A stretch of 64,000 bases of DNA, from the IMG/VR virus record IMGVR_UViG_3300025849_002201; one strand, given 5' to 3'. The notes under the pieces are model-generated. The model was given only the letters and a program-made list of their open reading frames with translations. It ran no database searches and was not told the DNA's origin. This stretch comes from a virus. Position 1 is the first letter of the stretch, and every line of letters starts with the position of its first letter. The translations under genes and the position numbers were made by a program. Of this stretch, positions 10,530-55,132 are shown one piece after another.

Positions 10530-12797
10530 TTAAGCTACTGTAATTGTTCCGAACATTGCACCACCGTGGTTAGTACATACATAGTAAAGTGTTGCCGGAG
10601 CGTCCATTGGAACTGTCCAAACGTATACACCTTCGTTGTCGCCACTTGTGCCTGTTGTGTATAAATCACCTGCTGAGTAACCTGCTACACCCGGATCAAC
10701 TGTTTGCAAATTAAACGGATGTGTTGCGCCGTTTGCACTATTATCAAATACATATGTATGGCCGCGATATACAGTAAATGCTGGATCACTTACAGTTCCA
10801 GCAAAACCTGGACCAGTAAATGTAAAGTCTGAAGTTCCGTTAGCGCCAAGTACCCATCCAAGTGTTGGACTCATCATAGGCATCCACATACCTGCTGTAT
10901 ATACATGCGGCTGTGGCAATGTAGCATCTGAAACAAATGCAGTATCGCCCTCGGCTGCTATAAATTCTGCTTGTAATCCTGCAAGTCCATATTCACCTAA
11001 ACTAAACAGTCCGTCGATAATATTTACTTGTCCATTAGGTACAGCTATTTCTAAATTTGTTTCTGACTCTAAGCGTGGAACTCCTGCACCAGATGTATTA
11101 ATAGTAGTTGCATCAACTTCAGCAACAGTTAGCCTTCCGTCAATACTAACATCGCTTGAGAAGTCAGTTGCTTGTACAATAGTAATGTTACTACTGTCAG
11201 ATGTTTGTATCGAACTACCTACAATGTCAAGTCCACTAATCGCTACCGAACCACCTGCTAGACTTTGAATACCAACAGTGCCTGATCCTGCGTTAATATT
11301 AACGTTGCCATTAACAGAACTAATTGCAAGACCTTGTCCACTAGTTTCTTCTTGAATATCTGAAACTAATACTGCACCAGTAAATGTTGTTTGTGTTGCA
11401 CTAATAGTTGTATTGGTAGCAGTTTCAAAGAAGTTAGTGTCAACGTAACCTTTAGTTGCTGCATGCAATGCTAGTGTTGGATCACCTGATAGTGTTAACG
11501 CTCCAAGCATTGGAATAGCACCACTTGTTGGAAGTTTTGTATTGTCTTCAATAACAATGTTTGTACTACCATTAAACGCAACACCGTTAATTGTTCTCGG
11601 AGTAGCTAGTGTTTGTGCTGTAGTTGCAGCAATGTTACCAGTTGCAGTTAAGTTTCCGCCTACTGTTAAGTTACCTGTTGTAACAGTACCAAATGTTACT
11701 GCTGTAGTTGTTAATGTAGCGCCTGATAAATCAACAGTTCCAGTAATCACTAACGGATTTAATGTTGTTGATAGTGTTGTACTTGCGCCGTCGTCTAATA
11801 AATTAAAATCTTGTCCTACAAGTTCAAGGTTGCCGCCGAGCGCACTAATAGTTAAATCTGGACCTCCGTTGATTGTAGCTACATTAAGAATTTGACCAGC
11901 ATTTAGTGTGTTAATAGTTGAGTTGTTAAAATTACCTTCTACAGCACTAACGACATTATTAACGCCGTCAACGATCACAGTACTATCATCACCGAACACA
12001 CTACCTACCATGTCGCCTTCTAGTTCGCCAAGTAGTAGACCTTCAAACGTACCAAAAATCGTAACACCGTCGTCGAGTGTTTGTGTTGCATCAATTACTA
12101 TAGTTGTACCGTCATTAGCATAAACTGTGTTAAGCGTTGCGTTACCAGTTAAGTTACCTGTGACATTACCAGTTAAGTTGTTTACTAGTGTTCCTTCGAT
12201 TACATCTGCAGGAATTGATGAATTCATACTATCAACTAGTAGTGTATCGTCAAAGCCTATAACGTCACCTTTTAGGGAACCAGTTGAGCCTCCGCCGTCT
12301 GCAACAAACTCTATATTGCCGCCTTCTACAGTAACACTACCAGTTAAAACAGATCCTGCAATTACCGACAACCAAGCTGCGCCATCGCCGCCTAGTGTGT
12401 ATGTTAAATTAGTTGCTGGAAGAATATTACTTGCAACACCGCCTGCAAAGTTAATGGCATCATTTGCATCGCCTGTTCCAATGTTAATACTTCCGGAAAG
12501 TGTAATATCACCTGTAATGTCAATATTACCTGTACCAACTATATCGTGTCCTCTAAGATGCAAGTCACCGTCTAGGAAAGGATCATTTGGTGCAAGTTGT
12601 GCTTCTGAATAAAAAGGATCAGTTGGTGGAACACTTAGTCCAGCAACAACGCCGCCTCCTGATGCAGGATTTCCCCCCGGGGTAATACCATCCCCAACAA
12701 ATATTTGTTTGTTGTCGATAGTATATATTAATTCACCGGTCTGTGGGGTATAGACTAGTCTCTCTGCCTCTGTACCCCTTTTAAGTTTTAGTGCCAT
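10530..12797 (-). CDS. Tail fibre protein
   Basis: Mtd-like N-terminus (LKRGT...GEL.Y..D), PRTINGVAF repeat, cupredoxin-like C-terminus (LYYVCTNH). Confidence 0.75.
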   Translation of the reverse strand: MALKLKRGTEAERLVYTPQTGELIYTIDNKQIFVGDGITPGGNPASGGGVVAGLSVPPTDPFYSEAQLAPNDPFLDGDLHLRGHDIVGTGNIDITGDITLSGSINIGTGDANDAINFAGGVASNILPATNLTYTLGGDGAAWLSVIAGSVLTGSVTVEGGNIEFVADGGGSTGSLKGDVIGFDDTLLVDSMNSSIPADVIEGTLVNNLTGNVTGNLTGNATLNTVYANDGTTIVIDATQTLDDGVTIFGTFEGLLLGELEGDMVGSVFGDDSTVIVDGVNNVVSAVEGNFNNSTINTLNAGQILNVATINGGPDLTISALGGNLELVGQDFNLLDDGASTTLSTTLNPLVITGTVDLSGATLTTTAVTFGTVTTGNLTVGGNLTATGNIAATTAQTLATPRTINGVAFNGSTNIVIEDNTKLPTSGAIPMLGALTLSGDPTLALHAATKGYVDTNFFETATNTTISATQTTFTGAVLVSDIQEETSGQGLAISSVNGNVNINAGSGTVGIQSLAGGSVAISGLDIVGSSIQTSDSSNITIVQATDFSSDVSIDGRLTVAEVDATTINTSGAGVPRLESETNLEIAVPNGQVNIIDGLFSLGEYGLAGLQAEFIAAEGDTAFVSDATLPQPHVYTAGMWMPMMSPTLGWVLGANGTSDFTFTGPGFAGTVSDPAFTVYRGHTYVFDNSANGATHPFNLQTVDPGVAGYSAGDLYTTGTSGDNEGVYVWTVPMDAPATLYYVCTNHGGAMFGTITVA

Positions 12798-27969: not shown

Positions 27970-29253
27970 TTACGCTATTTTTAGCAATATTGTATCAGGA
28001 TTGCAACGTCCGTTAAGTTTTGTATCAGTAGTCGGAATGTCATCTAAGAACTTGCGCAGTGCTACCTTACCTGCACCTTTGAATTCTTTCAACTGTGCTT
28101 CTGGCTTGCGTAGTGTCTTTTGGATACTTTGTGCTTCATCAAATCCTATGATTGTAGTACCCTTGACCTGCAAGCCACTCCCTGCTCGACCCATACCTTT
28201 GGGATCAATGTTCTTAGCAATATATTTGCCTAGCTTGCGTGTCTTGGTATTAAATACCCACAACTCGTTTGCACTAATAATATCTACAGGGTTAATACTT
28301 GCAAGTTTATACTTGTCGTCTGTCTTAGCGTACTTCAGCTTTTCAACTAGCTTGTCTGCACTCTTAGGCTTAGCCTTGCGCGGCGCACGAGTTGCTTTTG
28401 CTGTATCAATTACAAAGTCTAGTGATTGTATCAAACCTTCAATAGCACTTACAAACATCTTAATTTCTGCTTTCTTAAGATGCGCATATCCTTCTTTAAG
28501 TTGTGCCCACATGTCTGCTTCGTGTTCAGTCATCTTCTTTAATTGACCAGCTGTAGGCATACGCTCTAGGTCTTTGAAGTCAGCAATTTCGCCTTCAAAG
28601 AAGGACTTGATCTTACGAGCGTGTGCTTGCGTAACTCCTTGCTTTTGAAAATGCTTTTTAAAGTCAAAACCTTTTGGATCAAAGTTCTTACGATCATTGA
28701 ACCAGCCATCTAACCATTCGTCAATTGCTTCGCTTTGTAATAGAGCTTGATCTCGGATGCGTTCTTGGATAGTAGGAACGTATACGTTCTGTTTGCTCGC
28801 CGCGTCTTCTTGCACTTCTGCAACAATTGCATTGCCTTCTTTAATAATTCGTTCTAGTTGAGGCTTGAGCCATGCAGTTACGGGCTTCAACTCGCCCGAT
28901 GTACCAGGAAGACTGTCCCAGTGCTGTGCGTGTTTAGGATTAAGGTCTGGCATACCGAGACGCAACAATTTACAAATGTATCCAACAGTTACATTTATAC
29001 CGCGTTTCTTTACAGCATCAATATCTGCCTTGGCGTAATCGTTTTCTTTCATCCATGCTAAGGTGTCTGGAAGTAAGTCACTAGCTTTAAAGTTTGCATA
29101 CAAGTCGGCTTTGTAATCTCGTACTCGCTTGTGGTAATCTGCACCACTCCAATTTTCCCAATTTTCAAAATCATAAACATTTTTTTTGTTTTTTGCGATT
29201 GGTGCTAGACGTACTTTTTTACGCGGTGCCTTGATGCCGATGCCTTTTGCCAT
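27970..29253 (-). CDS. Hypothetical phage protein (427 aa)
   Basis: Long ORF with RBS and its own promoter. Confidence 0.75.
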   Translation of the reverse strand: MAKGIGIKAPRKKVRLAPIAKNKKNVYDFENWENWSGADYHKRVRDYKADLYANFKASDLLPDTLAWMKENDYAKADIDAVKKRGINVTVGYICKLLRLGMPDLNPKHAQHWDSLPGTSGELKPVTAWLKPQLERIIKEGNAIVAEVQEDAASKQNVYVPTIQERIRDQALLQSEAIDEWLDGWFNDRKNFDPKGFDFKKHFQKQGVTQAHARKIKSFFEGEIADFKDLERMPTAGQLKKMTEHEADMWAQLKEGYAHLKKAEIKMFVSAIEGLIQSLDFVIDTAKATRAPRKAKPKSADKLVEKLKYAKTDDKYKLASINPVDIISANELWVFNTKTRKLGKYIAKNIDPKGMGRAGSGLQVKGTTIIGFDEAQSIQKTLRKPEAQLKEFKGAGKVALRKFLDDIPTTDTKLNGRCNPDTILLKIA

Positions 29254-29287
29254 TTAACTTACTCCTAAGTTTTAATTTATATTACTT

Positions 29288-29316
29288 ATTATATAGCAAT
29301 GTAAATAAAATGTCAA
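29288..29316 (-). promoter_or_regulatory. Sigma70-type early promoter
   Basis: TTGACA-17-TATAAT. Confidence 0.8.
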
Positions 29317-29323
29317 CCTATAT

Positions 29324-29399
29324 TGGTCCTACTTCTTGGATTCGAACCAAGCCTCCAAAATCCACAATTTTGTGTGCTAACCACTAACACTAAAGTAGT
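29324..29399 (-). tRNA. trnH: tRNA-His(GTG); A73, no G-1, A1:G72 mismatch
   Basis: Cloverleaf, anticodon arm CAAAA-TTGTGGA-TTTTG, T-loop TTCGAAT, CCA encoded. Confidence 0.85.
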
Positions 29400-29403
29400 A
29401 CGT

Positions 29404-29811
29404 TTAACCTACGATTTCGATATCTACGCTTTCGCTGTAATACCCGTTGCTTGTACCGTACCAGCGAATATCTACACTACCTTTCATAGTTCTGAAACGG
29501 TAGTATGTCCAAGTTTCGCTTTCACTCCATTCGTCATCTTCATATTTGCTTTCGCCGTCGTAGTTGCTTACTTCCTCAACCAACAGCAAAGGAGTTCCTA
29601 CTAAGTCATCCAAGTCACCTACGATGTCTTCAATGCTTACACTCTCGCAACAATCTTGGGCGTGATACATACGCACATAGTGATCTTCAGTCAAGTGGAA
29701 GCGAAGTTCGTAATCATCAAGATTTACTACTTTGCAAAGAATTCGTCCTTGCAAATCTTCAAACGATTTTACTGGATCTTGTAAATGGTTATATGTTGCG
29801 TACTTGCTCAT
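29404..29811 (-). CDS. Hypothetical acidic phage protein
   Basis: Start at MSKYAT with RBS. The longer track ORF overlaps tRNA-Phe. Confidence 0.7.
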   Translation of the reverse strand: MSKYATYNHLQDPVKSFEDLQGRILCKVVNLDDYELRFHLTEDHYVRMYHAQDCCESVSIEDIVGDLDDLVGTPLLLVEEVSNYDGESKYEDDEWSESETWTYYRFRTMKGSVDIRWYGTSNGYYSESVDIEIVG

Positions 29812-29831
29812 CTTGTTCTCTCTACTATAAA

Positions 29832-29907
29832 TGGTGCTAGAGGACGGATTCGAACCGCCGACACCCTGGGCTTCAACCAAGTGCTCTACCAACTGAGCTA
29901 CTCTAGC
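29832..29907 (-). tRNA. trnF: tRNA-Phe(GAA)
   Basis: Canonical cloverleaf, loop TTGAAGC, CCA. Confidence 0.95.
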
Positions 29908-29908
29908 A

Positions 29909-29985
29909 TGGCAGTCCTGAAGGGACTCGAACCCCTAACCTACACGTTCGTAGCGTGTTGCTCTAATCCATTGAGCTACAGGACT
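29909..29985 (-). tRNA. trnR: tRNA-Arg(ACG)
   Basis: Arm ACACG-CTACGAA-CGTGT, CCA. Confidence 0.95.
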
Positions 29986-29989
29986 AAAC

Positions 29990-30060
29990 TGGTAGTAAAT
30001 GATAGAATCGAACTATCTCTTCAGGCTTATGAGACCCGAGTCCGGACCACCGGATTTACT
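29990..30060 (-). tRNA. trnM: Atypical tRNA(CAT), probably Met; 71 nt with miniature D-arm
   Basis: Acceptor AGTAAAT/ATTTACT, loop CTCATAA, T-arm GATAG-TTCGATT-CTATC. D-arm is CCGG-TGGT-CCGG with no U8 linker. Confidence 0.7.
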
Positions 30061-30061
30061 A

Positions 30062-30138
30062 TGGAGTGCATGACAGGACTTGAACCTGCATAAAACGGAT
30101 TTGCAATCCGGGGCCTAACCATTCAGCTACACATGCAC
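30062..30138 (-). tRNA. trnC: tRNA-Cys(GCA)
   Basis: Loop TTGCAAA, U73, CCA. Confidence 0.92.
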
Positions 30139-30139
30139 A

Positions 30140-30214
30140 TGGCTGGGGAGGAAGGATTCGAACCTTCGGTACACAGGATCAAAACCTGTTGCCTTACCGC
30201 TTGGCTACTCCCCA
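30140..30214 (-). tRNA. trnQ: tRNA-Gln(TTG)
   Basis: Arm ACAGG-TTTTGAT-CCTGT, CCA. Confidence 0.95.
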
Positions 30215-30219
30215 AAACT

Positions 30220-30296
30220 TGGTGGACTCTCTGGGATTCGAACCCAGGACCTACCGATTAAAAGTCGGTTGCTCTAACCAGCTGAGCTAAGAGTCC
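30220..30296 (-). tRNA. trnK: tRNA-Lys(TTT)
   Basis: Arm ACCGA-CTTTTAA-TCGGT, CCA. Confidence 0.95.
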
Positions 30297-30297
30297 A

Positions 30298-30382
30298 TGG
30301 TGGGGAAGTGTGGTTACGCTCCACTCCCGGTAAAAGACGAGTTTTACAGACTCGCTGCGGAAACTATCCGCTTTACTTCCCC
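30298..30382 (-). tRNA. trnY: tRNA-Tyr(GTA) with non-canonical T- and D-loops
   Basis: Acceptor GGGGAAG/CTTCCCC, arm CGAGT-CTGTAAA-ACTCG, T-loop AGCGTAA. Confidence 0.8.
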
Positions 30383-30383
30383 T

Positions 30384-30458
30384 TGGTTGCTGTGGGTAGG
30401 ATTGAACTACCGACCTAAGAGTTATCAGCTCTTTGCTCTACCACTGAGCTACACAGCA
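30384..30458 (-). tRNA. trnI: tRNA-Ile(GAT)
   Basis: Arm AAGAG-CTGATAA-CTCTT, CCA. Confidence 0.95.
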
Positions 30459-30464
30459 TTAATT

Positions 30465-30539
30465 TGGCACCGGTGGAGAGAATCGAACTCCCTTCGCGCA
30501 GTTTTGGAGACTGCCGCTCTGCCAATGAGCTACACCGAT
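30465..30539 (-). tRNA. trnW: tRNA-Trp(CCA)
   Basis: Arm GCAGT-CTCCAAA-ACTGC, CCA. Confidence 0.95.
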
Positions 30540-30562
30540 ATAAAACTTTTTCCTTCTTCCAT

Positions 30563-30598
30563 AAAAAAACCCCTACTAATATCGCTACTAGCAGGGGT
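30563..30598 (-). terminator. Intrinsic terminator (attenuator 1) directly upstream of tRNA block 1
   Basis: ACCCCTGCTAGT-AGCGAT-ATTAGTAGGGGT followed by T run. Its 5' arm overlaps the 3' arm of an antiterminator. Confidence 0.9.
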
Positions 30599-30628
30599 GT
30601 GTTAAAATAACTTTTCTTAACTACTACG

Positions 30629-30700
30629 TCAAGACACACTCCTGCCTTCGCTAAACCAGCGAATGCAATATTGTTGAATATGTTTCATCATTGTAGTCAT
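30629..30700 (-). CDS. Leader peptide 1, MTTMMKHIQQYCIRWFSEGRSVS (putative attenuation sensor)
   Basis: 23-codon ORF between a promoter and the terminator. Codons 4-16 encode only M,K,H,I,Q,Y,C,R,W,F, the ten tRNA specificities downstream. Confidence 0.88.
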   Translation of the reverse strand: MTTMMKHIQQYCIRWFSEGRSVS

Positions 30701-30735
30701 TTCTATTTCTCTTTGTTTAATTCTTTGTATAACTT

Positions 30736-30764
30736 AATATACTATGTTATTTATCATCTGTCAA
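30736..30764 (-). promoter_or_regulatory. Promoter for leader 1 (sigma70-type with embedded late-type TAAATA)
   Basis: TTGACA-gatgataaataacatag(17)-TATATT. Confidence 0.8.
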
Positions 30765-30798
30765 CCACTATTTGACAATTTAGACAGAAAATTTAGTT

Positions 30799-30873
30799 TG
30801 GTATCCCGTAGGAGAATCGAACTCCTCTTTCCTGCGTGAAAGGCAAGCGTCCTAACCGATAGACGAACGGGAC
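30799..30873 (-). tRNA. trnE: tRNA-Glu(TTC)
   Basis: Loop CTTTCAC, CCA. Confidence 0.95.
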
Positions 30874-30879
30874 AAAAAA

Positions 30880-31142
30880 CGGAAGTAAAAAAGCAAGTAA
30901 TGAACTAGACAATGTGCATTAAGGTACTTCGCATCGCGCTTCACCTTCCAAGCAATCTACAATAAGCAACATGCAGAGGGCTTGTTTATTTCCAGCAATC
31001 AAAGTGCAACTGTTCTGTAAATCTGGAGCATACAAGCACGGAGACGTTTCAAGCGTCCTGAGCTATAGTTGTTGTTTAATTTCTAGTAAACTAGAAACAC
31101 GTAACAACACGGTTGTCCATCCTCATCTCAATTTTACTTCCG
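30880..31142 (-). ncRNA. Candidate ~260-nt structured ncRNA
   Basis: Perfect 11-bp closing inverted repeat (30880-30890/31132-31142), several internal hairpins, no ORF. Confidence 0.55.
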
Positions 31143-31170
31143 GGTAGTTTTACTAAACTACCAAAACCTC

Positions 31171-31734
31171 TTAGAGGATGCCTGCTCGTTCTAAGAAACG
31201 TGCTGTTTCCTCATCCAACTCAATTTCTGTTTGAACATTAAGCTCAAGCAGTGTATCCTGCAACTTCTGCTTCTGACGCTTCAAGTCAGCAACAGTGCGT
31301 TTAAAATCTTCCACTTCTGCCTTGGTAAAGATTGAAGTGTCCACAGCTTCACGACCGTACCCGTAACGATCTTCCTTGCCGTCTTTCAACTTGGCAATCT
31401 TACCTTCAATAACAGCATCACTTAGACGAGCTGCTTTTGTAGCGTAGGTGTTGTTGAACTGGATTTCTTTCTCCAAGTGTGCAACATCTGCTAGCAAATC
31501 GTTAATGCTTTCATCAGCATTTGCACGAGCAACTGCTTTGCGGATAGCGTATAGCGCACCCACTAGCTTGTTGCGTGTTGCACTGTGAGTTATGAATACA
31601 TCACGCACAGCATCGATCTGAGCAGAGTGATCTTCAAACTCGTTAACGCTTACTGATGTTTCGAAAGTCAAACCTTTGATCATTTCGTTGATGCTGTTCT
31701 GTACAGCGTTTGCTTTGCGTAGTGTAATGTTCAT
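31171..31734 (-). CDS. Hypothetical coiled-coil protein
   Basis: 187-aa ORF with RBS and upstream promoter. Confidence 0.75.
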   Translation of the reverse strand: MNITLRKANAVQNSINEMIKGLTFETSVSVNEFEDHSAQIDAVRDVFITHSATRNKLVGALYAIRKAVARANADESINDLLADVAHLEKEIQFNNTYATKAARLSDAVIEGKIAKLKDGKEDRYGYGREAVDTSIFTKAEVEDFKRTVADLKRQKQKLQDTLLELNVQTEIELDEETARFLERAGIL

Positions 31735-31759
31735 CTTCTTTTCCTTTGTGTATGTGTAT

Positions 31760-31787
31760 ATTATACAGTATTTTACTGCTTTGTCAA
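31760..31787 (-). promoter_or_regulatory. Sigma70-type promoter inside tRNA block 2
   Basis: TTGACA-16-TATAAT. Confidence 0.7.
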
Positions 31788-31924
31788 CTATTATTTTAAA
31801 GTGGCATCAGCTTATTCTAGTCATTTGTTAACGGGCCCAGCTGCCTTCAAGCTACTATGTAGCTTCTTTTTACACCTACGTGGGTAACTAGAATTGTTTT
31901 TATTCCCACTCTTCAAAATAAACT

Positions 31925-32001
<77 letters not shown>

Positions 32002-32006
32002 AAATA

Positions 32007-32082
32007 TGGTAGGACGTAACGGGTTCGAACCGCTGACATTTGCCGTGTAAAGGCAACGCTCTACCAACTGAGCTAACGTCCT
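32007..32082 (-). tRNA. trnV: tRNA-Val(TAC)
   Basis: Arm TTGCC-TTTACAC-GGCAA, CCA. Confidence 0.95.
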
Positions 32083-32083
32083 A

Positions 32084-32173
32084 TGGCGGAAGCGGTGGGA
32101 TTCGAACCCACGGAACCTTGCGGTTCGCTAGTTTTCAAGACTAGTGCCTTCAGCCAGACTCGGCCACACTTCC
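32084..32173 (-). tRNA. trnS: tRNA-Ser(TGA)
   Basis: Arm CTAGT-CTTGAAA-ACTAG, long variable arm, G73. Confidence 0.95.
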
Positions 32174-32177
32174 TAAT

Positions 32178-32199
32178 TGGTAGCAGGTGTTACACCCGC
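32178..32199 (-). other. CCA-ended microhelix resembling the tRNA-Gly acceptor stem
   Basis: GCGGGTG-TAA-CACCTGC-TA-CCA. The first 11 nt are identical to the 5' end of tRNA-Gly(TCC). Confidence 0.5.
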
Positions 32200-32285
32200 A
32201 ATAAACTTTTAAAACTGGCAGTCCAACATGCACTCTTTTAACTTATCCGCCCAGGTCATTCGACAACGATAAGTACCAGTTAATT

Positions 32286-32359
32286 TGGAGCGGGAGAAGG
32301 GAATCGAACCCTCGTAGTAACGTTGGCAACGTTCTGCTCTACCATTGAGCTACACCCGC
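32286..32359 (-). tRNA. trnG: tRNA-Gly(GCC)
   Basis: Loop TTGCCAA, U73, CCA. Confidence 0.93.
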
Positions 32360-32460
32360 AATATATAAACGTATAGGCTCCTACTGAAAGTGCTATACAA
32401 ACTCACCTACACTTTGTTTAACTTGCTCGCTCTATGAGCGTTGTAGGCTTAACCGCAATA

Positions 32461-32546
32461 TGGTGTCAATCGAGGAGTCGAACCTCGCCGCAGTAGGTGA
32501 CATGACGCCTGTAGTGTCTGTTACTGTTAGCGAACCCGCATTGACA
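32461..32546 (-). ncRNA. tRNA-like RNA with intact acceptor, T-arm and CCA but non-canonical D/anticodon domain
   Basis: TGTCAAT...CGAGG-TTCGACT-CCTCG-ATTGACA-CCA. Confidence 0.6.
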
Positions 32547-32550
32547 TATA

Positions 32551-32626
32551 TGGTGGAGGTTACCGGGATCGAACCGATGACCTATTGCTTGCAAAGCAAT
32601 CGCTCTCCCAACTGAGCTAAACCCCC
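32551..32626 (-). tRNA. trnA: tRNA-Ala(TGC)
   Basis: G3:U70, loop TTTGCAA, CCA. Confidence 0.95.
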
Positions 32627-32631
32627 GTTAT

Positions 32632-32708
32632 TGGTCGGAGTACAAGGATTCGAACCTTGGACCCTCTGCTCCCAAAGCAGATGCGCTACCAGGCTGCGCC
32701 ATACTCCG
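32632..32708 (-). tRNA. trnP: tRNA-Pro(TGG)
   Basis: Arm TCTGC-TTTGGGA-GCAGA, CCA. Confidence 0.95.
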
Positions 32709-32806
32709 TAAATTAGTTTAAGCAGTTTTGCGTCCTACTTAGGACGGCCAGTCTCCTGGGCACCATTTGCTCAATTGTTTTACAAGGGGAACAAAACCCT
32801 TAAACT

Positions 32807-32889
32807 TGGTGCCCAATGAGGGACTCGAACCCCCACGCTTTCGCACTGGTACCTAAAACCAGCGTGTCTACCAATTCCACCAATTGGGC
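32807..32889 (-). tRNA. trnL: tRNA-Leu(TAG)
   Basis: Arm CTGGT-TTTAGGT-ACCAG, variable arm, A73. Confidence 0.95.
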
Positions 32890-32950
32890 AATAAGATTCT
32901 AAAGGCTTAACTTGTCCCTACTAGGCAACAAGTGCTAAAGAATCATTGTA

Positions 32951-33026
32951 TGGTGCCGCAACAAGGATTCGAACCCTGGACCTACTGATTACAAATCAGT
33001 TGCTCTACCAACTGAGCTATTGCGGC
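32951..33026 (-). tRNA. trnT: tRNA-Thr(TGT)
   Basis: Arm ACTGA-TTTGTAA-TCAGT, CCA. Confidence 0.95.
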
Positions 33027-33109
33027 GTTATCTTCTTACTCTGCAACTAGGACAAAAATCATCGTGTCCTAGTTCAGTTTTACATTCACTACATGTTTTC
33101 ATATAGTAC

Positions 33110-33331
33110 TTATTCGTCGTTGTTGACATCTTCAACAATATTGAGTTGATAAGAACGAATAATTTGTTCTTCTAAGTCGTTCTTATTAAACTCACCCGAT
33201 TCAAGTCTACGTAGTGCATCAGCTGCACTTGAGGCTTGCTTAGATCTAACTAGATAAGCACATACACCTACTAAGTCTGTTCTGTTGATGCCTGTTGCAT
33301 CCATTGCTTCTTCAATAAAGACTCGTCCCAT
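33110..33331 (-). CDS. Small hypothetical protein within the tRNA array
   Basis: 73 aa. Own promoter TTGACA-16-TATACT at 33370-33397. Confidence 0.6.
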   Translation of the reverse strand: MGRVFIEEAMDATGINRTDLVGVCAYLVRSKQASSAADALRRLESGEFNKNDLEEQIIRSYQLNIVEDVNNDE

Positions 33332-33406
33332 GTGTGTAACCTTTCATGCGTTACTGTTTCTATACATTAAGTATAACACCTACACCGTAGATGTCAACCT
33401 GTTAAA

Positions 33407-33481
33407 TGGAGCGGGTGACAAGGATCGAACTTGCGACGAACAGCTTGGAAGGCTGACACTCTACCACTGAGTTACACCCGC
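33407..33481 (-). tRNA. trnG: tRNA-Gly(TCC)
   Basis: Loop CTTCCAA, U73, CCA. Confidence 0.95.
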
Positions 33482-33485
33482 ATAT

Positions 33486-33580
33486 TGGCTTTCCAGCTAC
33501 CTTAGGAGTTTACCCTATAGTGTTTCACTTTACGCTATGACAGCTTTTAACTGAGAGATCATAGCAACTAAGACTGGAAA
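33486..33580 (-). ncRNA. CCA-ended RNA with tRNA-like acceptor stem and non-tRNA body
   Basis: 5' TTTCCAG pairs with 3' CTGGAAA-G-CCA. Internal stems GCTATGA/TCATAGC and CTTAG/CTAAG. Confidence 0.55.
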
Positions 33581-33582
33581 CT

Positions 33583-33670
33583 TGGCGGAGCGACTGGGAG
33601 TCGAACCCAGTGACCGTTTGCACGGTCTACAGATTAGCAATCTGCTGCATTACCATCCTGCCCCCGCTCC
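33583..33670 (-). tRNA. trnS: tRNA-Ser(GCT)
   Basis: Loop TTGCTAA, long variable arm, G73. Confidence 0.95.
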
Positions 33671-33737
33671 GTAAACATATCCCCGATTTATCAGATTCGT
33701 TGCATCAGCTATACTGTATGCAGGATATGTTTAAACT

Positions 33738-33813
<76 letters not shown>

Positions 33814-33815
33814 AT

Positions 33816-33983
33816 AAACTCTACTTACAACTACACTGTTTGCAGACTCGAACTGCGGTTGCCCGTCGGCAAATGAGGACCACCTCACGAACGGAATCGA
33901 ACCGTCTACCTCCCATTATTCACAGTGTATGTGTAAGTAGAGTTTTAGTGATGTATGTTGGTAGCATACATCTTCTACTTACA
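33816..33983 (-). ncRNA. Structured 5' leader RNA with two T-loop hairpins and alternative pairings
   Basis: 24-bp inverted repeat (33816-33839/33922-33945, 2 mismatches) enclosing GCAG-TTCGAGT-CTGC and ACGG-TTCGATT-CCGT. A third copy of the stem strand lies at 33973-33983. Confidence 0.6.
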
Positions 33984-34071
33984 TCTCCTATCATCGCTTG
34001 CGCTAAGGAGCGTAAAATTTTCTATCTAAATTGTCAAAGAGCGTGTAAACATTGCTGCTTACTGTTTATAC

Positions 34072-34100
34072 AGTGTAACAAATAATCTTGTACTTGTCAA
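34072..34100 (-). promoter_or_regulatory. Sigma70-type promoter
   Basis: TTGACA-17-TACACT. Confidence 0.7.
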
Positions 34101-34158
34101 CCTGTTTGTTTAATCTTTCTAGCAACTCTAAACTACTGTTCTTTGTTGCTATGTGTTT

Positions 34159-34187
34159 ATTATAGTGTATTACTTAGTGCCTGTCAA
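34159..34187 (-). promoter_or_regulatory. Sigma70-type promoter (consensus)
   Basis: TTGACA-17-TATAAT, just downstream of attenuator 2. Confidence 0.8.
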
Positions 34188-34207
34188 CTATTATTTTGCC
34201 TAATCAT

Positions 34208-34240
34208 AAAAAAAGCCCCTAACATTTCTGCTAAGGGCTT
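34208..34240 (-). terminator. Intrinsic terminator (attenuator 2) upstream of tRNA block 2
   Basis: AAGCCCTTAGCA-GAAA-TGTTAGGGGCTT-TTTTT. Confidence 0.9.
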
Positions 34241-34265
34241 TTAAAAATCTTGTAGTATGTTCTAC

Positions 34266-34352
34266 TTAACTCTTACAAACCCCGCAGGCATCCGCACCCG
34301 GATTACTTGATCCGACTGTCGAATATTCTACTGATGTTAGTACGAGTTTCAT
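34266..34352 (-). CDS. Leader peptide 2, MKLVLTSVEYSTVGSSNPGADACGVCKS (putative attenuation sensor)
   Basis: 28-codon ORF with AAGGA RBS. 19 of codons 3-22 encode L,V,T,S,E,G,N,P,A,D, the ten amino acids of tRNA block 2, and all ten appear. Confidence 0.85.
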   Translation of the reverse strand: MKLVLTSVEYSTVGSSNPGADACGVCKS

Positions 34353-34411
34353 TGAACTTACTTTTCCTTTTGTTATAGTTTATTTATCATCTTGAACAAA
34401 AAACTATCTGT

Positions 34412-34990
34412 TTATGAGTTTACAATACGTTCGTAAATCTCTTTCCAATTGTTTACTCGAGCAGCATTGCCGCTGTAGTCTTCGTTGTGATCATGAGCAA
34501 TTAGAATACCATCTAGTCCCATGCTAATACCACAGTCTACGTTTTGTGGCTTGTCTTCAATCCAGTAACAACCTGTGTCACGATACTGTTCGAGTACATC
34601 ATCCTTGTCAGCACCGGTATCTAAATAAATGTACTTTTCAAATACGCTGTCTCCAAACATCTCACGCAAGTTCTTAGTACGCAAATGTTGCGAATAATCA
34701 TCATTGCTCAAACTAGTAATACAGTGGAAGATGTAACCGTGTTCTGCATGTAGTTTCTTGACATAGTGAATAGCATCACGCAGTGGCGGAAGTTTACGAA
34801 TCCAGGCACTTTCGTTAAACATACGTACAAGACGCATTGTTTCAGCACGATCTAGTCCGTACTTGATGTCCATTTGATAGTTACCAGTTTCTACAATTGT
34901 ATAACCATGTCGCTTCATCCATTGATCAAACGCATATTCCCAGTCAAACAACACACCGTCTGCGTCAGTTAAAATACATTTATTTTTCAT
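34412..34990 (-). CDS. HAD-family 5'(3')-nucleotidase-like phosphatase
   Basis: DADGVL motif I, IEDKP motif IV. Promoter TTGACA-17-TATAAT at 35025-35053. Confidence 0.8.
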   Translation of the reverse strand: MKNKCILTDADGVLFDWEYAFDQWMKRHGYTIVETGNYQMDIKYGLDRAETMRLVRMFNESAWIRKLPPLRDAIHYVKKLHAEHGYIFHCITSLSNDDYSQHLRTKNLREMFGDSVFEKYIYLDTGADKDDVLEQYRDTGCYWIEDKPQNVDCGISMGLDGILIAHDHNEDYSGNAARVNNWKEIYERIVNS

Positions 34991-35049
34991 ATAGTGCCTC
35001 TTTCTATTGCCTTATTATGTTTATATTATACAATAGAAAGAGACTGCTG

Positions 35050-35379
35050 TCAACCTTTATTATACCATTCTGTTTCGTATTCTTCTACAATGTTTACTGC
35101 ATTAATACGATCATAACGGAAACTGCGCCAACCTTTTGCGTTTACGTCCCACACACTTACAACTGCATCTGATATCTCGCGAACCTTCTTTTGGCTCATT
35201 GCATCTGTTTTAGTTGCAGCTGGCTTCATGTCTTCACGTAGCGTACAAGTCATTACACGCTTGTCACCATTGAGTTTAGTAAAGTCAACTACTAGTACGT
35301 TTTGTTCCAGTTGGAACTTTAGATCCGCTTTTGTCGGGATCCCCTTTAGTGTTGCTATCGTGTCGCTTACTTCTGTCAT
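35050..35379 (-). CDS. WYL/SH3-like phage protein (DUF2693-like)
   Basis: FTKLNGDKRVMTCTL...VWDV..KGWRSFRYDRI. Start trimmed to MTEVS. Confidence 0.7.
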   Translation of the reverse strand: MTEVSDTIATLKGIPTKADLKFQLEQNVLVVDFTKLNGDKRVMTCTLREDMKPAATKTDAMSQKKVREISDAVVSVWDVNAKGWRSFRYDRINAVNIVEEYETEWYNKG

Positions 35380-35380
35380 A

Positions 35381-36055
35381 TTAGTCTCTCCTATTGCCAA
35401 ACAACTGTAGCAGGGCAATAAACAAGTTAATGAAGTCTAAGTATAGTGTTAGTGCGCCTGCAACTTCCTGTGAGCGAGTATCACCGCCTTGACTTACAAT
35501 TTGTCTAATCTTTTGTGTGTCGTAGGCTGTTAGACCCATAAACACAATAATAGCAATTGCACTGATTGCCATTTGCATTACAGTACTGCCGATAAAGATA
35601 TTAACAATACTAGCAATAATAATTGCAATAAGTCCAACGAACATAAACTGTCCGATTGATGTTAAATCTTTCTTAGTTACATAGCCGTAAATACTCATAG
35701 TTAGGAATAAGATAGCCGCACCTAAGAACGCTGTAATAATACTCATACCTGTATACACTACAAAGATAGTAGCAAAGCTCAATCCCATAAGTGCCGCAAA
35801 GCCGTGTAGCATCATCTGTGCTGTGCTATAACTAACTTTGTGCATGTTAAAACTAATTGCAAAGATTGCAACTAGAGGTGCAAAAATAACAATGTATTGC
35901 ATGATGCCTGTAAAAAAGAACTGCATTAGTGCAGGACTAGAACTTACAAGCCAACTAACTATCATTGATGTAATAACTGCTAGTGACATATGACCGTATA
36001 CACGGTTCATTGCTGTGATAAGTTCGTCTGTTGTTTTCCAAGTTGTTGTATTCAT
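35381..36055 (-). CDS. Bax inhibitor-1/YccA family membrane protein
   Basis: About 7 TM helices, AYDTQKI and GALTLYLDFINLF motifs. Confidence 0.9.
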   Translation of the reverse strand: MNTTTWKTTDELITAMNRVYGHMSLAVITSMIVSWLVSSSPALMQFFFTGIMQYIVIFAPLVAIFAISFNMHKVSYSTAQMMLHGFAALMGLSFATIFVVYTGMSIITAFLGAAILFLTMSIYGYVTKKDLTSIGQFMFVGLIAIIIASIVNIFIGSTVMQMAISAIAIIVFMGLTAYDTQKIRQIVSQGGDTRSQEVAGALTLYLDFINLFIALLQLFGNRRD

Positions 36056-53092: not shown

Positions 53093-55132
53093 TTACTTTG
53101 TTGTAGCTACAAACACGCCATTCCAATCTTTAGGCAAATCTTGTGTTAGCATATACTCACAACGTTCAATCCACATATCGTAGTACTTTTCCATCTTGCC
53201 TTCAAACTGTGGCTTCAACTTATTACATGATTCAATAGCTTCTTGGAATCGTTGCTGCTGATACATTTTATGCATGTCTTCATGTCTACGCTTGCTTGTT
53301 GCATAATGTTTCTTAACATCATCTAGCACTGTGTAGATAGCAACTCCTACAGTTTTACCTTTAACTGCTAAGTCGTCTACCTTTAGGAAGAAGAAGTCTT
53401 CCTTGCACTGTTCTACAGTTGCTCCACCTACTAGTAACAAGCATCCGTATTCTTTACACTTGCTTTCTATTCTTGCTGCGGTACTGACTGCGTCTCCAAG
53501 GACGTCATAGCTGTGTCGTTTTGTGCTGCCCATCTCACCCAAGTATCCGAGTCCAGTATTGATGCCAGCGCCCATACCAACGGCAGGTCTTCCTTGAGGT
53601 ATGACAAAATCTTCATTAAACTTCTCCACTGCTTTTAGCATACGTAATCCTGTACGTACTGCTGAATCAGCATGTTTAGGATCATCTGTTGGTGCATTGT
53701 GTACGTGCATACTAGCATCGCCGATATACTTGATAACCATTCCGTCTGCATCAAGTATAGGCTGTGTAATGCTGTCCATGTACCCATTCATAATTTTAGT
53801 AAGTCCCTTTACGTCATCACCAAACGATTCGCCTAATGGCGTAAAGCCGCGCAAGTCTGAGAATACAATACTAATTTCACGTTTCATACCGTCTTTGATT
53901 AGACTTGGATTTTCTTGTAGCATACGCACAACAGTAGGGCTTGCATATCCAGCAAACTGTTTCTTAATTGCCTGCTTCTCTAGGAACTCACGTACAAACT
54001 TAATACCGTATACCTGTAGTGCTATTAGTACAAACGTAATAACTGGCGCTGTAACGTCTAATAACAGCTTGTCTGTTGCATAAGCATACATTGAATAAGG
54101 AACTACACTGCCTATCATCACAACAGTTGTAGCAAGTCCTACCCACAACCAACGACTTAGAAGTATAAGCAATAAACCGCCTATAGCAAGTGCTAGTAGC
54201 TCTGCTGTAGGTGCCCAGTCTGGACGCTGTATGTTTGTACCTGCAAACATTGTGCCTATTAGTGCAGCTTGTGTAGTGCCTGCGTACTGTGCTCCTGTTG
54301 CTGTAGGAATAGGATTAGCAATACCTGCTGCTGTTACATCTACAATAACTACTGCACCACCAAGGTCCTCTGGTAAGTTTGTTACGCTTACACTCTTTGA
54401 ACGTTGGCTCCAATCAATCCACACACGCCCTTCACTATCAGTTGGTATTATACCAAACTGAGGAATACGCATTTTCTCAACACCAGCTGCATTTAGTTTG
54501 ATTTGAAAGTTAGGGTCGCCTGCGATAACACGTAGTGTCTCAAGTGCTAGACTAGGATATAGTGTACCGTCTATGACAGCGACAGTTGGCATACGTCTTA
54601 CGACACCATCTATCTCCGGCTCTGTTGAAACGATTCCCGCACCAACACTGTTGTTTTCAAGTTCTGGTATGTTCGCAATGATACCGCCGTATGGTAGTAT
54701 GCGATCCAAGAACTGTGCTTGTAGTATTGCTGCCCCAGGATTGATGGGCTCGTTCTTTGTTTTGTCGCTGGGACGACTTGCTAGTATAACTGGATAGTCT
54801 AGCATAGTTTCTGCTAGTTCGGCATCGCCACCTAGTCTGTCTACTTCGGGCATCATTACGTTCCATACAACTAAGCCTGCGCCTCTGTTGTACAAGTCTT
54901 TAATGATGTCTGAGTATATGTTGCGTGGGAAAGGATATTGTCCGTACTTTTCCAATGCTGCTTCGTCTATCTCAGCAACATAGATATTATTCTCTGCTGG
55001 TTCTTGATTAACAATTAATTGGTCAAAGTAATTTAGTTTAATACTTTGTATAAAGTTATTAGGTACTGCAAATGTATACACTAATGCAGTCAGTGTAATC
55101 AATGCCCACCATGGGGATAATAATCGTTTCAT
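53093..55132 (-). CDS. CHASE2-domain class III adenylate/guanylate cyclase
   Basis: Periplasmic CHASE2, 3 TM helices, FSDLRGFT, KYIGD, GDAVSTAARIE. Confidence 0.92.
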   Translation of the reverse strand: MKRLLSPWWALITLTALVYTFAVPNNFIQSIKLNYFDQLIVNQEPAENNIYVAEIDEAALEKYGQYPFPRNIYSDIIKDLYNRGAGLVVWNVMMPEVDRLGGDAELAETMLDYPVILASRPSDKTKNEPINPGAAILQAQFLDRILPYGGIIANIPELENNSVGAGIVSTEPEIDGVVRRMPTVAVIDGTLYPSLALETLRVIAGDPNFQIKLNAAGVEKMRIPQFGIIPTDSEGRVWIDWSQRSKSVSVTNLPEDLGGAVVIVDVTAAGIANPIPTATGAQYAGTTQAALIGTMFAGTNIQRPDWAPTAELLALAIGGLLLILLSRWLWVGLATTVVMIGSVVPYSMYAYATDKLLLDVTAPVITFVLIALQVYGIKFVREFLEKQAIKKQFAGYASPTVVRMLQENPSLIKDGMKREISIVFSDLRGFTPLGESFGDDVKGLTKIMNGYMDSITQPILDADGMVIKYIGDASMHVHNAPTDDPKHADSAVRTGLRMLKAVEKFNEDFVIPQGRPAVGMGAGINTGLGYLGEMGSTKRHSYDVLGDAVSTAARIESKCKEYGCLLLVGGATVEQCKEDFFFLKVDDLAVKGKTVGVAIYTVLDDVKKHYATSKRRHEDMHKMYQQQRFQEAIESCNKLKPQFEGKMEKYYDMWIERCEYMLTQDLPKDWNGVFVATTK

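What the first reader, a model, noticed from the sequence alone, without database searches (positions are those of the whole stretch)
30563..30764. Leader-peptide attenuator whose codons list the tRNAs downstream (block 1)
Minus-strand order: promoter (TTGACA-17-TATATT), purine-rich RBS region, 23-codon ORF, intrinsic terminator, then tRNA-Trp about 23 nt later. Codons 4-16 are ATG ATG AAA CAT ATT CAA CAA TAT TGC ATT CGC TGG TTT (M M K H I Q Q Y C I R W F). They include every one of the ten downstream tRNAs (Trp, Ile, Tyr, Lys, Gln, Cys, Met, Arg, Phe, His) and nothing else, and each codon is readable by the encoded anticodon. Assuming ~45% background for these residues, 13 in a row is p<1e-4 before requiring all ten. 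The last codons (GCAGGAGUGUGU, 30634-45) pair 11/12 with ACACACCCCUGC (30591-602), which overlaps the terminator's 5' arm, so the two hairpins are mutually exclusive. A further hairpin UUCGCU/AGCGAA over codons 13-18 resembles a 1:2 pause structure. Inference: a ribosome reaching the stop covers the antiterminator strand and transcription terminates. Stalling for lack of any of these charged tRNAs allows read-through. This would be a multiplexed tRNA-depletion sensor, for example against host anticodon-nuclease defences or starvation. The his/trp/thr attenuation mechanism is established. I know of no description of it controlling phage tRNA arrays.
Basis: partly seen in the sequence, partly recalled or inferred. 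Interest (0 to 1): 0.98.

Follow-up and report, generated by a model that had tools for sequence, protein, structure and literature searches.

The report
Leader-peptide attenuator gating phage tRNAs
In front of ten tRNA genes of an uncultured marine phage sits a tiny translated gene spelled in exactly the codons those tRNAs read, wired to a stop/go RNA switch, so the phage probably makes these tRNAs only when ribosomes decode those codons slowly; I found no published case of this control for tRNA genes.

Summary
On the minus strand lie a sigma70-type promoter (30764-30736), a 23-codon ORF (30700-30629), a strong intrinsic terminator (30598-30562) and, about 23 nt later, tRNA-Trp and nine more tRNAs. 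Codons 4-16 use only, and all of, the ten amino acids of those tRNAs (about 1e-8 by chance).

The element belongs to a family of more than 60 distinct leaders in uncultured marine Kyanoviridae-like phages, all upstream of tRNA-Trp-headed arrays. In 67 of 69 members the terminator's 5' arm can instead pair with a G-run inside the last leader codons.

Leader codons track array content:
- Permutation test, z about 10 overall and 6-8 within clades.
- ATA runs occur with tRNA-Ile(UAU) or CAU tRNAs.
- In the window's own lineage Tyr>Ile and Lys>Thr changes sit in genomes lacking those tRNAs.

The match is statistical, not absolute. Arrays change faster than leaders, and some relatives keep codons for lost tRNAs.

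Best reading (0.7) is a ribosome-mediated attenuator that senses decoding speed. Function is inferred, not shown.

Eight literature searches found no description. This scan's own unchecked notes report the same design on other phage DNA in at least 61 genomes.

The parts
30736..30764 (-). Sigma70-type promoter, TTGACA-17 nt-TATATT. The spacer holds GATAAATAA, which is conserved in relatives.
   Evidence: 11/12 match. The same promoter position and spacer motif appear in family members.
30701..30714 (-). Purine-rich ribosome-binding region AAAGAGAAATAGAA. The main family has AAGGAAT here.
   Evidence: The nearby real gene at 29811 uses a similar GAGAGAA site.
30629..30700 (-). Leader ORF of 23 codons plus TGA, encoding MTTMMKHIQQYCIRWFSEGRSVS.
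   Evidence: It is the most conserved segment among 10 lineage members: 94.7% pairwise identity against 75-82% for the promoter and 5'UTR.
30653..30691 (-). Sensor codons 4-16 (M M K H I Q Q Y C I R W F): every amino acid of the ten downstream tRNAs and no other.
   Evidence: Against leader 2 and block 2, Fisher p = 2.4e-8.
30634..30645 (-). Antiterminator 5' strand (segment 2), inside codons 19-23, ending 2 nt before the stop codon.
30591..30602 (-). Antiterminator 3' strand (segment 3). It overlaps the terminator's 5' arm.
   Evidence: -22.9 kcal/mol, z -4.9. In 67 of 69 family members the C-run pairs with a G-run 10-13 nt before the end of the stop codon.
30562..30598 (-). Intrinsic terminator: 13-bp stem, 4-nt loop, U7.
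   Evidence: Across the family the stem is 98% paired, with 4 pairs showing compensatory changes.
29328..30539 (-). Regulated block 1: tRNA-Trp, Ile(GAU), divergent Tyr(GUA)-like (30383-30297), Lys, Gln, Cys, Met(CAU), Arg(ACG), Phe, a 135-aa ORF (29811-29404, phrog_2650), and His.
   Evidence: No consensus-grade promoter lies in the roughly 23 nt between the terminator and tRNA-Trp. Only two 9-of-12 matches lie inside the leader/terminator itself.
34208..34352 (-). Paralogous second leader (34352-34266) and terminator (34242-34211) upstream of tRNA block 2. This is a separate finding, used here as support.
   Evidence: (an HMM built without window sequences hits it, E 2e-4).

Best explanation
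This is a ribosome-mediated (leader-peptide) transcription attenuator that controls a phage tRNA operon.

How it most likely works:

1. Transcription starts at the promoter at 30764-30736, and a ribosome translates the 23-codon leader.
2. If the ribosome passes codon 15-16 and reaches the stop codon before RNA polymerase has made the terminator's 3' arm, it covers the strand GCAGGAGUGUGU. The terminator hairpin then forms and transcription ends about 23 nt before tRNA-Trp.
3. If the ribosome is delayed at any of codons 4-15 (marginally 16), that strand is free. It pairs with the terminator's 5' arm, and polymerase reads on into the ten tRNA genes. A delay would arise when the charged tRNA for Met, Lys, His, Ile, Gln, Tyr, Cys, Arg, Trp or Phe is scarce.
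4. The same read-through is predicted if no ribosome loads at all.

The result is negative feedback on decoding capacity: the phage makes this tRNA set when those codons are read slowly.

Shown here: the anatomy, the mutually exclusive pairings, conservation, and co-variation of leader codons with array content. Inferred: translation of the leader, the kinetics, and the direction of control.
For: 1. Anatomy and energies.
2. Codon content is far from chance: about 1e-8 jointly, and first of 359 small ORFs.
3. Leader 1 matches block 1 and leader 2 matches block 2, p = 2.4e-8.
4. Homology to a family. An HMM built without window sequences hits both window elements. In the set found through a neighbouring protein, 15 of the 17 tRNA-Trp genes examined carry the element.
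5. Co-variation of leader codons with arrays. At least two ATA codons occur in 15 of 17 leaders with tRNA-Ile(UAU) or CAU tRNAs, against 1 of 42 without. In near-identical leaders, a Gly/Cys codon swap accompanies a tRNA-Gly/tRNA-Cys swap (L133 vs L228). L216 has no Pro codons and no tRNA-Pro.
6. Window lineage. The only two non-synonymous changes in codons 4-16 are TAT>ATT and AAA>ACA. Both occur in genomes lacking tRNA-Tyr and tRNA-Lys respectively.
7. The leader ORF is the most conserved segment.
8. Geometry. The stop codon sits inside the antiterminator's 5' strand in 67 of 69 members. The array-matching excess lies at codons -8 to +3 around Trp and is absent from the last five codons. Footprint-masked folding places the permissive boundary at codon 15/16 in the window and 8 codons before the stop in 55 of 64 members.
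9. Terminator stem and a leader-closing helix co-vary.
Against: - There is no expression, Ribo-seq or termination data.
- Concordance is loose at fine scale. In 12 of 18 nearest-neighbour pairs the arrays differ without any matching codon change. Many leaders keep Cys and Pro codons with only tRNA-Trp downstream.
- L082/L257 lack Arg and His tRNAs, and L245/L249 lack six of the ten tRNAs, yet they keep most of the codons. L248 keeps TAT without tRNA-Tyr.
- Arg(GCG) and Gly(UCC) tRNAs are not matched at strict codon level.
- Each sensor codon occurs only once or twice, which should give low sensitivity compared with hisL or pheL.
- The RBS of the window lineage is weak.
- At equilibrium the terminator state is 4-8 kcal/mol more stable for every ribosome position that leaves the antiterminator strand free, so the model depends on kinetics.
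- The permutation tests do not fully remove shared ancestry.
Confidence: 0.7

Rival explanations
1. It is a general translation-capacity sensor that is not codon-specific. Any slow or absent translation of the leader gives read-through, for example through few free ribosomes, stress or host shut-off. The codon match would be secondary or historical.
For: Without a ribosome the antiterminator forms with probability 0.99 in the window and in 54 of 64 family members. Leaders change more slowly than arrays, and many codons are 'orphans' with no matching tRNA downstream.
Against: The codon content is specific to the block behind each leader. It also co-varies with arrays within clades. A general sensor would not need that.
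Confidence: 0.15
2. It is an independent small-peptide gene with its own terminator. The tRNAs would be expressed by leaky read-through, and the peptide itself would be the functional product.
For: The ORF, RBS and reading frame are conserved across the family. The N-terminal MxKTNT and C-terminal G(R)GMS motifs are conserved.
Against: The conserved C-terminal codons coincide with RNA pairing strands, and the stop codon co-varies with codons 2-4. The middle of the peptide is hypervariable and tracks tRNA content. No consensus-grade promoter lies between the terminator and tRNA-Trp, so the tRNAs depend on passing this terminator.
Confidence: 0.07
3. It works by nascent-peptide or polyproline (EF-P-dependent) arrest: the conserved C-W-P-P motif stalls ribosomes by itself.
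For: WPP is nearly universal in the main family, even where no tRNA-Pro follows.
Against: The window lineage has no Pro codons at all. In the main family the Pro codons double as the strand that pairs with the G-run (57 of 62 leaders), which explains their conservation. L216 lacks both the Pro codons and tRNA-Pro.
Confidence: 0.05
4. It is a chance ORF between a promoter and a terminator.
For: Short ORFs are common: the window has 359 ATG ORFs of 15-40 codons.
Against: The joint probability is about 1e-8. The ORF ranks first of 359. It is conserved at 94.7% identity, and the architecture recurs in more than 60 distinct relatives.
Confidence: 0.01

Closest known systems
Leader-peptide attenuators of enterobacterial amino-acid operons (trpL, hisL, pheL, leuL). 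Basis: my own knowledge of the textbook systems.
   Same: Promoter-proximal short ORF, sensor codons upstream of an antiterminator strand, a terminator whose 5' arm is shared with the antiterminator, and a stop codon placed so that a terminating ribosome masks the antiterminator.
   Different: The regulated genes are tRNAs, not enzymes. The sensor is 13 mostly single codons for ten amino acids, not a run of one codon. In this window no competitive 1:2 structure exists, so an untranslated leader is predicted to read through. In trp an untranslated leader terminates. No Rfam leader family matches.
Multivalent attenuators (ilvGMEDA: Ile/Val/Leu; thr: Thr/Ile) and the pheMST leader that controls Phe-tRNA synthetase. 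Basis: my own knowledge.
   Same: More than one amino acid is sensed by one leader. pheMST shows that attenuation can control a component of the translation apparatus.
   Different: Those leaders sense two or three amino acids, against ten here. The product regulated here is the sensed molecule's own gene, which gives direct feedback on tRNA supply.
T-box riboswitches
   Same: They couple tRNA status to read-through of a terminator upstream of translation-related genes.
   Different: A T-box binds uncharged tRNA directly and needs no translation. No specifier loop or T-box motif is present, and there is no Rfam hit.
Codon-matched leaders before tRNA arrays in other phages, as noted earlier in this scan (unchecked AI notes)
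   Same: The same design is reported in phiCbK-like Caulobacter phages, a marine Bacteroidota phage and a roughly 330-kb phage.
   Different: Those are different sequence families. The family here is Trp-headed, from marine Kyanoviridae-like phages, with the consensus GGGGUAUGUCUUGA ... AAGCCCCUAGCA ... UUAGGGGCU7.

Membership tests
Ribosome-mediated leader-peptide transcription attenuators | Short ORF with start codon and ribosome-binding site just downstream of the promoter | tested here: met
   The RBS, start codon and frame are conserved in more than 60 distinct leaders. The window lineage has a weaker, purine-rich RBS.
Ribosome-mediated leader-peptide transcription attenuators | Leader enriched in codons that report the regulated function | tested here: met
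   13 of 13 codons match the ten downstream tRNAs. Family-wide association has z 10.2, and 6.3-7.8 within clades.
Ribosome-mediated leader-peptide transcription attenuators | Intrinsic terminator between the leader and the regulated genes, with no consensus-grade promoter after it | tested here: met
Ribosome-mediated leader-peptide transcription attenuators | Antiterminator mutually exclusive with the terminator, with its 5' strand overlapping the end of the leader ORF | tested here: met
   (67 of 69 members).
Ribosome-mediated leader-peptide transcription attenuators | 1:2 anti-antiterminator or pause hairpin | tested here: inconclusive
   In the window the leader-internal fold has z -1.65 and does not compete with the antiterminator. 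In the main family the G-run can pair with the Pro codons (57 of 62), and a helix between codons 2-4 and the stop region co-varies. Even so, the antiterminator still wins in 54 of 64 members.
Ribosome-mediated leader-peptide transcription attenuators | Leader translated, and read-through rises on ribosome stalling | not testable with these tools
Six metatranscriptome runs hold parts of the stretch, but only as contigs.
Ribosome-mediated leader-peptide transcription attenuators | Regulates amino-acid biosynthesis or aminoacyl-tRNA synthetase genes | tested here: not met
   The downstream genes are ten tRNAs and one small ORF. I therefore file it as a new variant, not as a member of the classical set.
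T-box riboswitch / Rfam leader families (Trp, His, Leu, Thr, Phe leaders) | Match to the curated covariance models | tested here: not met
   The permissive cmscan (E up to 1) of 28000-35500 listed matches to only six families: tRNA above its gathering score, and Plastid-ycf2, Plastid-psbl-rps4, YrlA, mir-1285 and sX4 below theirs. No leader or T-box family appeared.

The most novel reading that the evidence does not exclude
Phages run a previously undescribed class of multiplexed decoding sensors: leader-peptide attenuators that list, codon by codon, the tRNAs encoded behind them, and that co-evolve with the array. Phage tRNA genes would then be switched on only when the host pool fails to decode those codons, whether through codon-usage mismatch, host tRNA decay or anticodon-nuclease defence. 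The window carries two such units that split the 20 amino acids 10 + 10.
Probability: 0.6. Interest if true: 0.92.

Novelty: new variant of a known kind. Interest (0 to 1): 0.87.

Why it matters
Why phages carry tRNA genes has been debated for decades. Proposed reasons include codon compensation, replacement of degraded host tRNAs, and escape from tRNA-cleaving defences (for the last, see eLife 2023, PMC10264068, which I read by title and abstract only).

A sensor that turns a tRNA array on when its own codons are decoded slowly would show that the phage measures decoding capacity in real time. It would also make the question testable, because the leader says which shortages matter.

It would extend leader-peptide attenuation, a mechanism known for amino-acid and synthetase genes, to RNA genes, and to a ten-input OR gate. 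It would also give synthetic biology a compact reporter of tRNA supply.

Tried and rejected
- Near-identity search of the region against cultured phages found nothing. A distant search with a family member hit only tRNA-Trp genes.
- The cultured relatives Melnitz and HTVC008M have scattered tRNAs and no such element, so no culturable model was found.
- No whole genome is held for the window.
- The first set of loci, found through the phrog_2650 ORF, was not syntenic and gave no leader homologs.
- RNAalifold on the MAFFT alignment recovered only the GGGG:CCCC core of the antiterminator, because the inner part is misaligned. I therefore folded members one by one.
- Equilibrium folding of the full transcript always favours the terminator. 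I rejected it as a test because attenuation is kinetic, and replaced it with folding of the nascent transcript.
- I considered and rejected a promoter inside the switch: TTGACG-17-TATTTT at 30632-30604 matches 9 of 12, which is chance level, and it would start inside the terminator.
- Eight literature searches found no description.

Full report
**1. The observation**

Reading the minus strand, in order:
- TTGACA-17 nt-TATATT at 30764-30736. The consensus scan scores it 11 of 12.
- A purine-rich stretch, AAAGAGAAATAGAA.
- An ATG at 30700 opening a 23-codon ORF, MTTMMKHIQQYCIRWFSEGRSVS, with TGA at 30631-30629.
- A 13-bp hairpin at 30598-30569 followed by seven U.
- About 23 nt later, tRNA-Trp at 30539.

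ARAGORN and Rfam then give Ile(GAU), Lys, Gln, Cys, Met(CAU), Arg(ACG), Phe and, after a 135-aa ORF, His.

The 87 nt between Ile and Lys are not called as a tRNA. They fold as a cloverleaf with anticodon GUA, and they align with the canonical tRNA-Tyr of two relatives. However, they have a non-canonical T loop. 'Tyr' is therefore a divergent, possibly impaired, gene.

Codons 4-16 contain all ten amino acids of these tRNAs and nothing else. Each codon is readable by the encoded anticodon.

**2. Is it more than chance?**

The ten residues make up 33.7% of the window's long ORFs. Simulation gives:
- P = 5e-6 for a run of 13 or more in 22 residues.
- P = 2.8e-3 that 13 such residues cover all ten.

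Of 359 small ATG ORFs in the window, this one ranks first on both run length and coverage.

The window also holds a second leader (34352-34266) in front of tRNA block 2. Comparing the variable parts of the two leaders against the two tRNA blocks gives 13/0 versus 1/19, Fisher p = 2.4e-8.

**3. What the genome is**

There is no near match among cultured phages. Proteins point to a marine myophage related to Kyanoviridae: a cyclase-domain protein is 52% identical to Methylophilales phage Melnitz and 35% identical to Pelagibacter phage HTVC008M. A relative's contig of 179.6 kb is rated 50% complete. Melnitz and HTVC008M do not carry the element.

**4. Relatives**

A search for the leader peptide found two contigs with the same leader. 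The 427-aa gene next to the array retrieved 43 relatives. Upstream of 15 of the 17 tRNA-Trp genes examined in that set lies the same architecture: TTGACA-17-TATAGT, AAGGAAT, a 17-24 codon ORF, GGGGUAUGUCUUGA, then AAGCCCCUAGCA...UUAGGGGCU7 and tRNA-Trp. The two without it are an internal tRNA-Trp in L118 and the block head in L113.

A pattern scan and an HMM raised this to 130 hits and 67 distinct leader/array pairs. The HMM was built without any window sequence and hits both window elements (E 7.6e-6 and 2e-4). Both window leaders are therefore diverged members of this family.

**5. Do leaders follow arrays?**

I used 59 distinct leaders. I left out copies with less than 1.5 kb of DNA after the terminator, duplicates and the block-2 leader. 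tRNA-Trp was excluded because it is constant.
- Leaders hold 192 codons cognate to their own array, against 114 ± 7.6 after permuting arrays (z 10.2).
- Permuting only within four leader clades still gives z 6.3-7.8.

Per tRNA:
- tRNA-Ile(UAU) arrays have 3.3 ATA codons, against 0.45 in the others.
- 15 of 17 leaders with a UAU or CAU tRNA have at least two ATA codons, against 1 of 42 without. This suggests that many 'Met(CAU)' genes are lysidine-type tRNA-Ile.
- Cys, Pro, Gln, Tyr, Ser(UGA), Arg(ACG) and His are also enriched.
- Arg(GCG) and Gly(UCC) are not enriched at strict codon level.

Telling pairs:
- ...SII**G**WPS... with Gly(UCC) against ...SII**C**WPS... with Cys.
- ...LQ**R**WCP**E**Q... 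with Arg(ACG) and Glu.
- A leader with no Pro codon and no tRNA-Pro (L216).

Among 18 independent nearest-neighbour pairs with different arrays, own arrays fit better in 6, equally in 12 and worse in 0 (sign test 0.016). Arrays therefore turn over faster than leaders, and the rule is statistical.

**6. The window's own lineage**

Sixteen loci share the window's terminator; four of them re-sample contigs already in the set. The leader ORF is the most conserved segment, at 94.7% pairwise identity, against 75-82% for the promoter and 5'UTR.

The only non-synonymous changes in codons 4-16 are:
- TAT>ATT, in contigs whose arrays have no Tyr gene (L254, L247, L245/L249; in L255 only tRNA-Trp was found in the 1.1 kb available).
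- AAA>ACA, in L245/L249, whose arrays lack Lys.

Counter-examples:
- L248 keeps TAT without a Tyr gene.
- L082/L257 lack Arg and His tRNAs anywhere on a 179-kb contig, yet keep CGC and CAT.
- L245/L249 keep Ile, Gln, Arg and His codons with a four-tRNA array.

**7. The switch**

The strand GCAGGAGUGUGU (codons 19-23) pairs with ACACACCCCUGC, which includes the terminator's 5' arm. This hairpin folds at -22.9 kcal/mol (z -4.9); the terminator folds at -20.1 kcal/mol (z -5.7).

Across 69 distinct members, the terminator's C-run pairs in 67 with a G-run 10-13 nt before the end of the stop codon. Mean energies are -19.5 kcal/mol for the antiterminator and -18.2 for the terminator.

The terminator stem is 98% paired, with four compensatory pairs. 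In the main family, codons 2-4 pair with the last codons, and the stop codon co-varies: UCAAGA with UCUUGA, UUAAGA with UCUUAA, UCAAAA with UUUUGA. The Pro codons can pair with the G-run, which explains why WPP persists without a tRNA-Pro.

At equilibrium the terminator state is favoured for every ribosome position that leaves the antiterminator strand free, as in trp, so control must be kinetic.

I then folded the RNA that has emerged when the polymerase is making the 3' arm, with a footprint masked from -15 to +12 around the A site. In the window, the antiterminator forms (P at least 0.99) with the A site at codons 2-15 or with no ribosome. It cannot form from codon 16 on. That is where the run of block-1 codons ends.

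In 55 of 64 family members the last permissive codon is 8 codons before the stop, at or next to the universal Trp codon. The excess of array-matching codons lies at -8 to +3 around Trp and is absent from the last five codons.

**8. Mechanism**

A slow ribosome on any sensor codon leads to read-through and more of that tRNA set. A fast ribosome reaching the end of the ORF leads to termination. This gives negative feedback on decoding capacity. Unlike trp, an untranslated leader is predicted to read through.

Shown here: the anatomy, exclusivity of the two pairings, conservation and co-variation. Inferred: translation, kinetics and physiological purpose. The anticodon-nuclease idea is only a hypothesis.

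**9. Comparison with known systems and novelty**

It works like trpL/hisL-type and multivalent (ilv, thr) attenuators, and like pheMST in regulating the translation apparatus. It is not a sequence member of any Rfam leader or T-box family. Its regulated genes are tRNAs, so it fails that one classical feature.

Eight full-text searches found no description. This scan's earlier unchecked notes report the same design in other phage families, in at least 61 genomes, and one look-alike of this sequence family. Those notes are leads, not evidence.

**10. Limits**

Shared ancestry is only partly controlled. tRNA calls rest on ARAGORN, and arrays near contig ends may be truncated.

Noticed in passing
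window 30297-30383 (-): Divergent tRNA-Tyr-like gene. It has a GUA anticodon and its acceptor, D and anticodon stems are kept by compensatory changes relative to the canonical tRNA-Tyr of L081/L082. Its T loop is AGCGUAA and its T stem has 4 bp. ARAGORN and Rfam both miss it.
   Followed up: partly
window 34208-34352 (-); L244 (reverse complement) about 1950-2200: The second leader and terminator before tRNA block 2 is a family member. It is also present in the L082 contig, with a different terminator sequence but the same architecture. In both, a full-consensus sigma70-type promoter follows the terminator (34187-34159 in the window), so this unit can gate only transcripts coming from upstream.
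   Followed up: partly
window 30747-30759 (-) and the promoter spacers of family members (for example L101, L093, L109): The promoter spacer carries a conserved (G/C)ATAAATAA motif, which resembles T4-type late promoters (TATAAATA). This suggests a dual early/late promoter.
   Followed up: no
Family loci, for example L102, L104, L125, L224, L227, L179, L156: tRNAs that ARAGORN calls Met(CAU) sit behind leaders with two or three ATA codons. They are probably lysidine-type tRNA-Ile2. In the window lineage the CAU tRNA goes with two internal ATG codons and no ATA.
   Followed up: partly
Main-family leaders (alignment A2): A helix between leader codons 2-4 and the last codons plus stop co-varies with stop-codon identity (TGA against TAA). 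The Pro codons can pair with the G-run.
   Followed up: yes
window 29404-29811 (-): A 135-aa ORF (phrog_2650, function unknown) is embedded between tRNA-Phe and tRNA-His. Homologs occur in many viral contigs, several of them inside or beside tRNA arrays (L003, L009, L010, L058, L060).
   Followed up: partly
window 53093-55132 (-): A 679-aa protein annotated in relatives as carrying an adenylate/guanylate cyclase domain. It is shared with Methylophilales phage Melnitz (52% identity) and Pelagibacter phage HTVC008M (35%).
   Followed up: no
L245 about 11305-11440: In the four-tRNA relative, about 137 nt separate the terminator from tRNA-Trp. They include a second GGGGCTTTTTTT-type run, possibly a remnant of a second terminator.
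   Followed up: no
I saw them in the sequence but did not analyse them.
   Followed up: no
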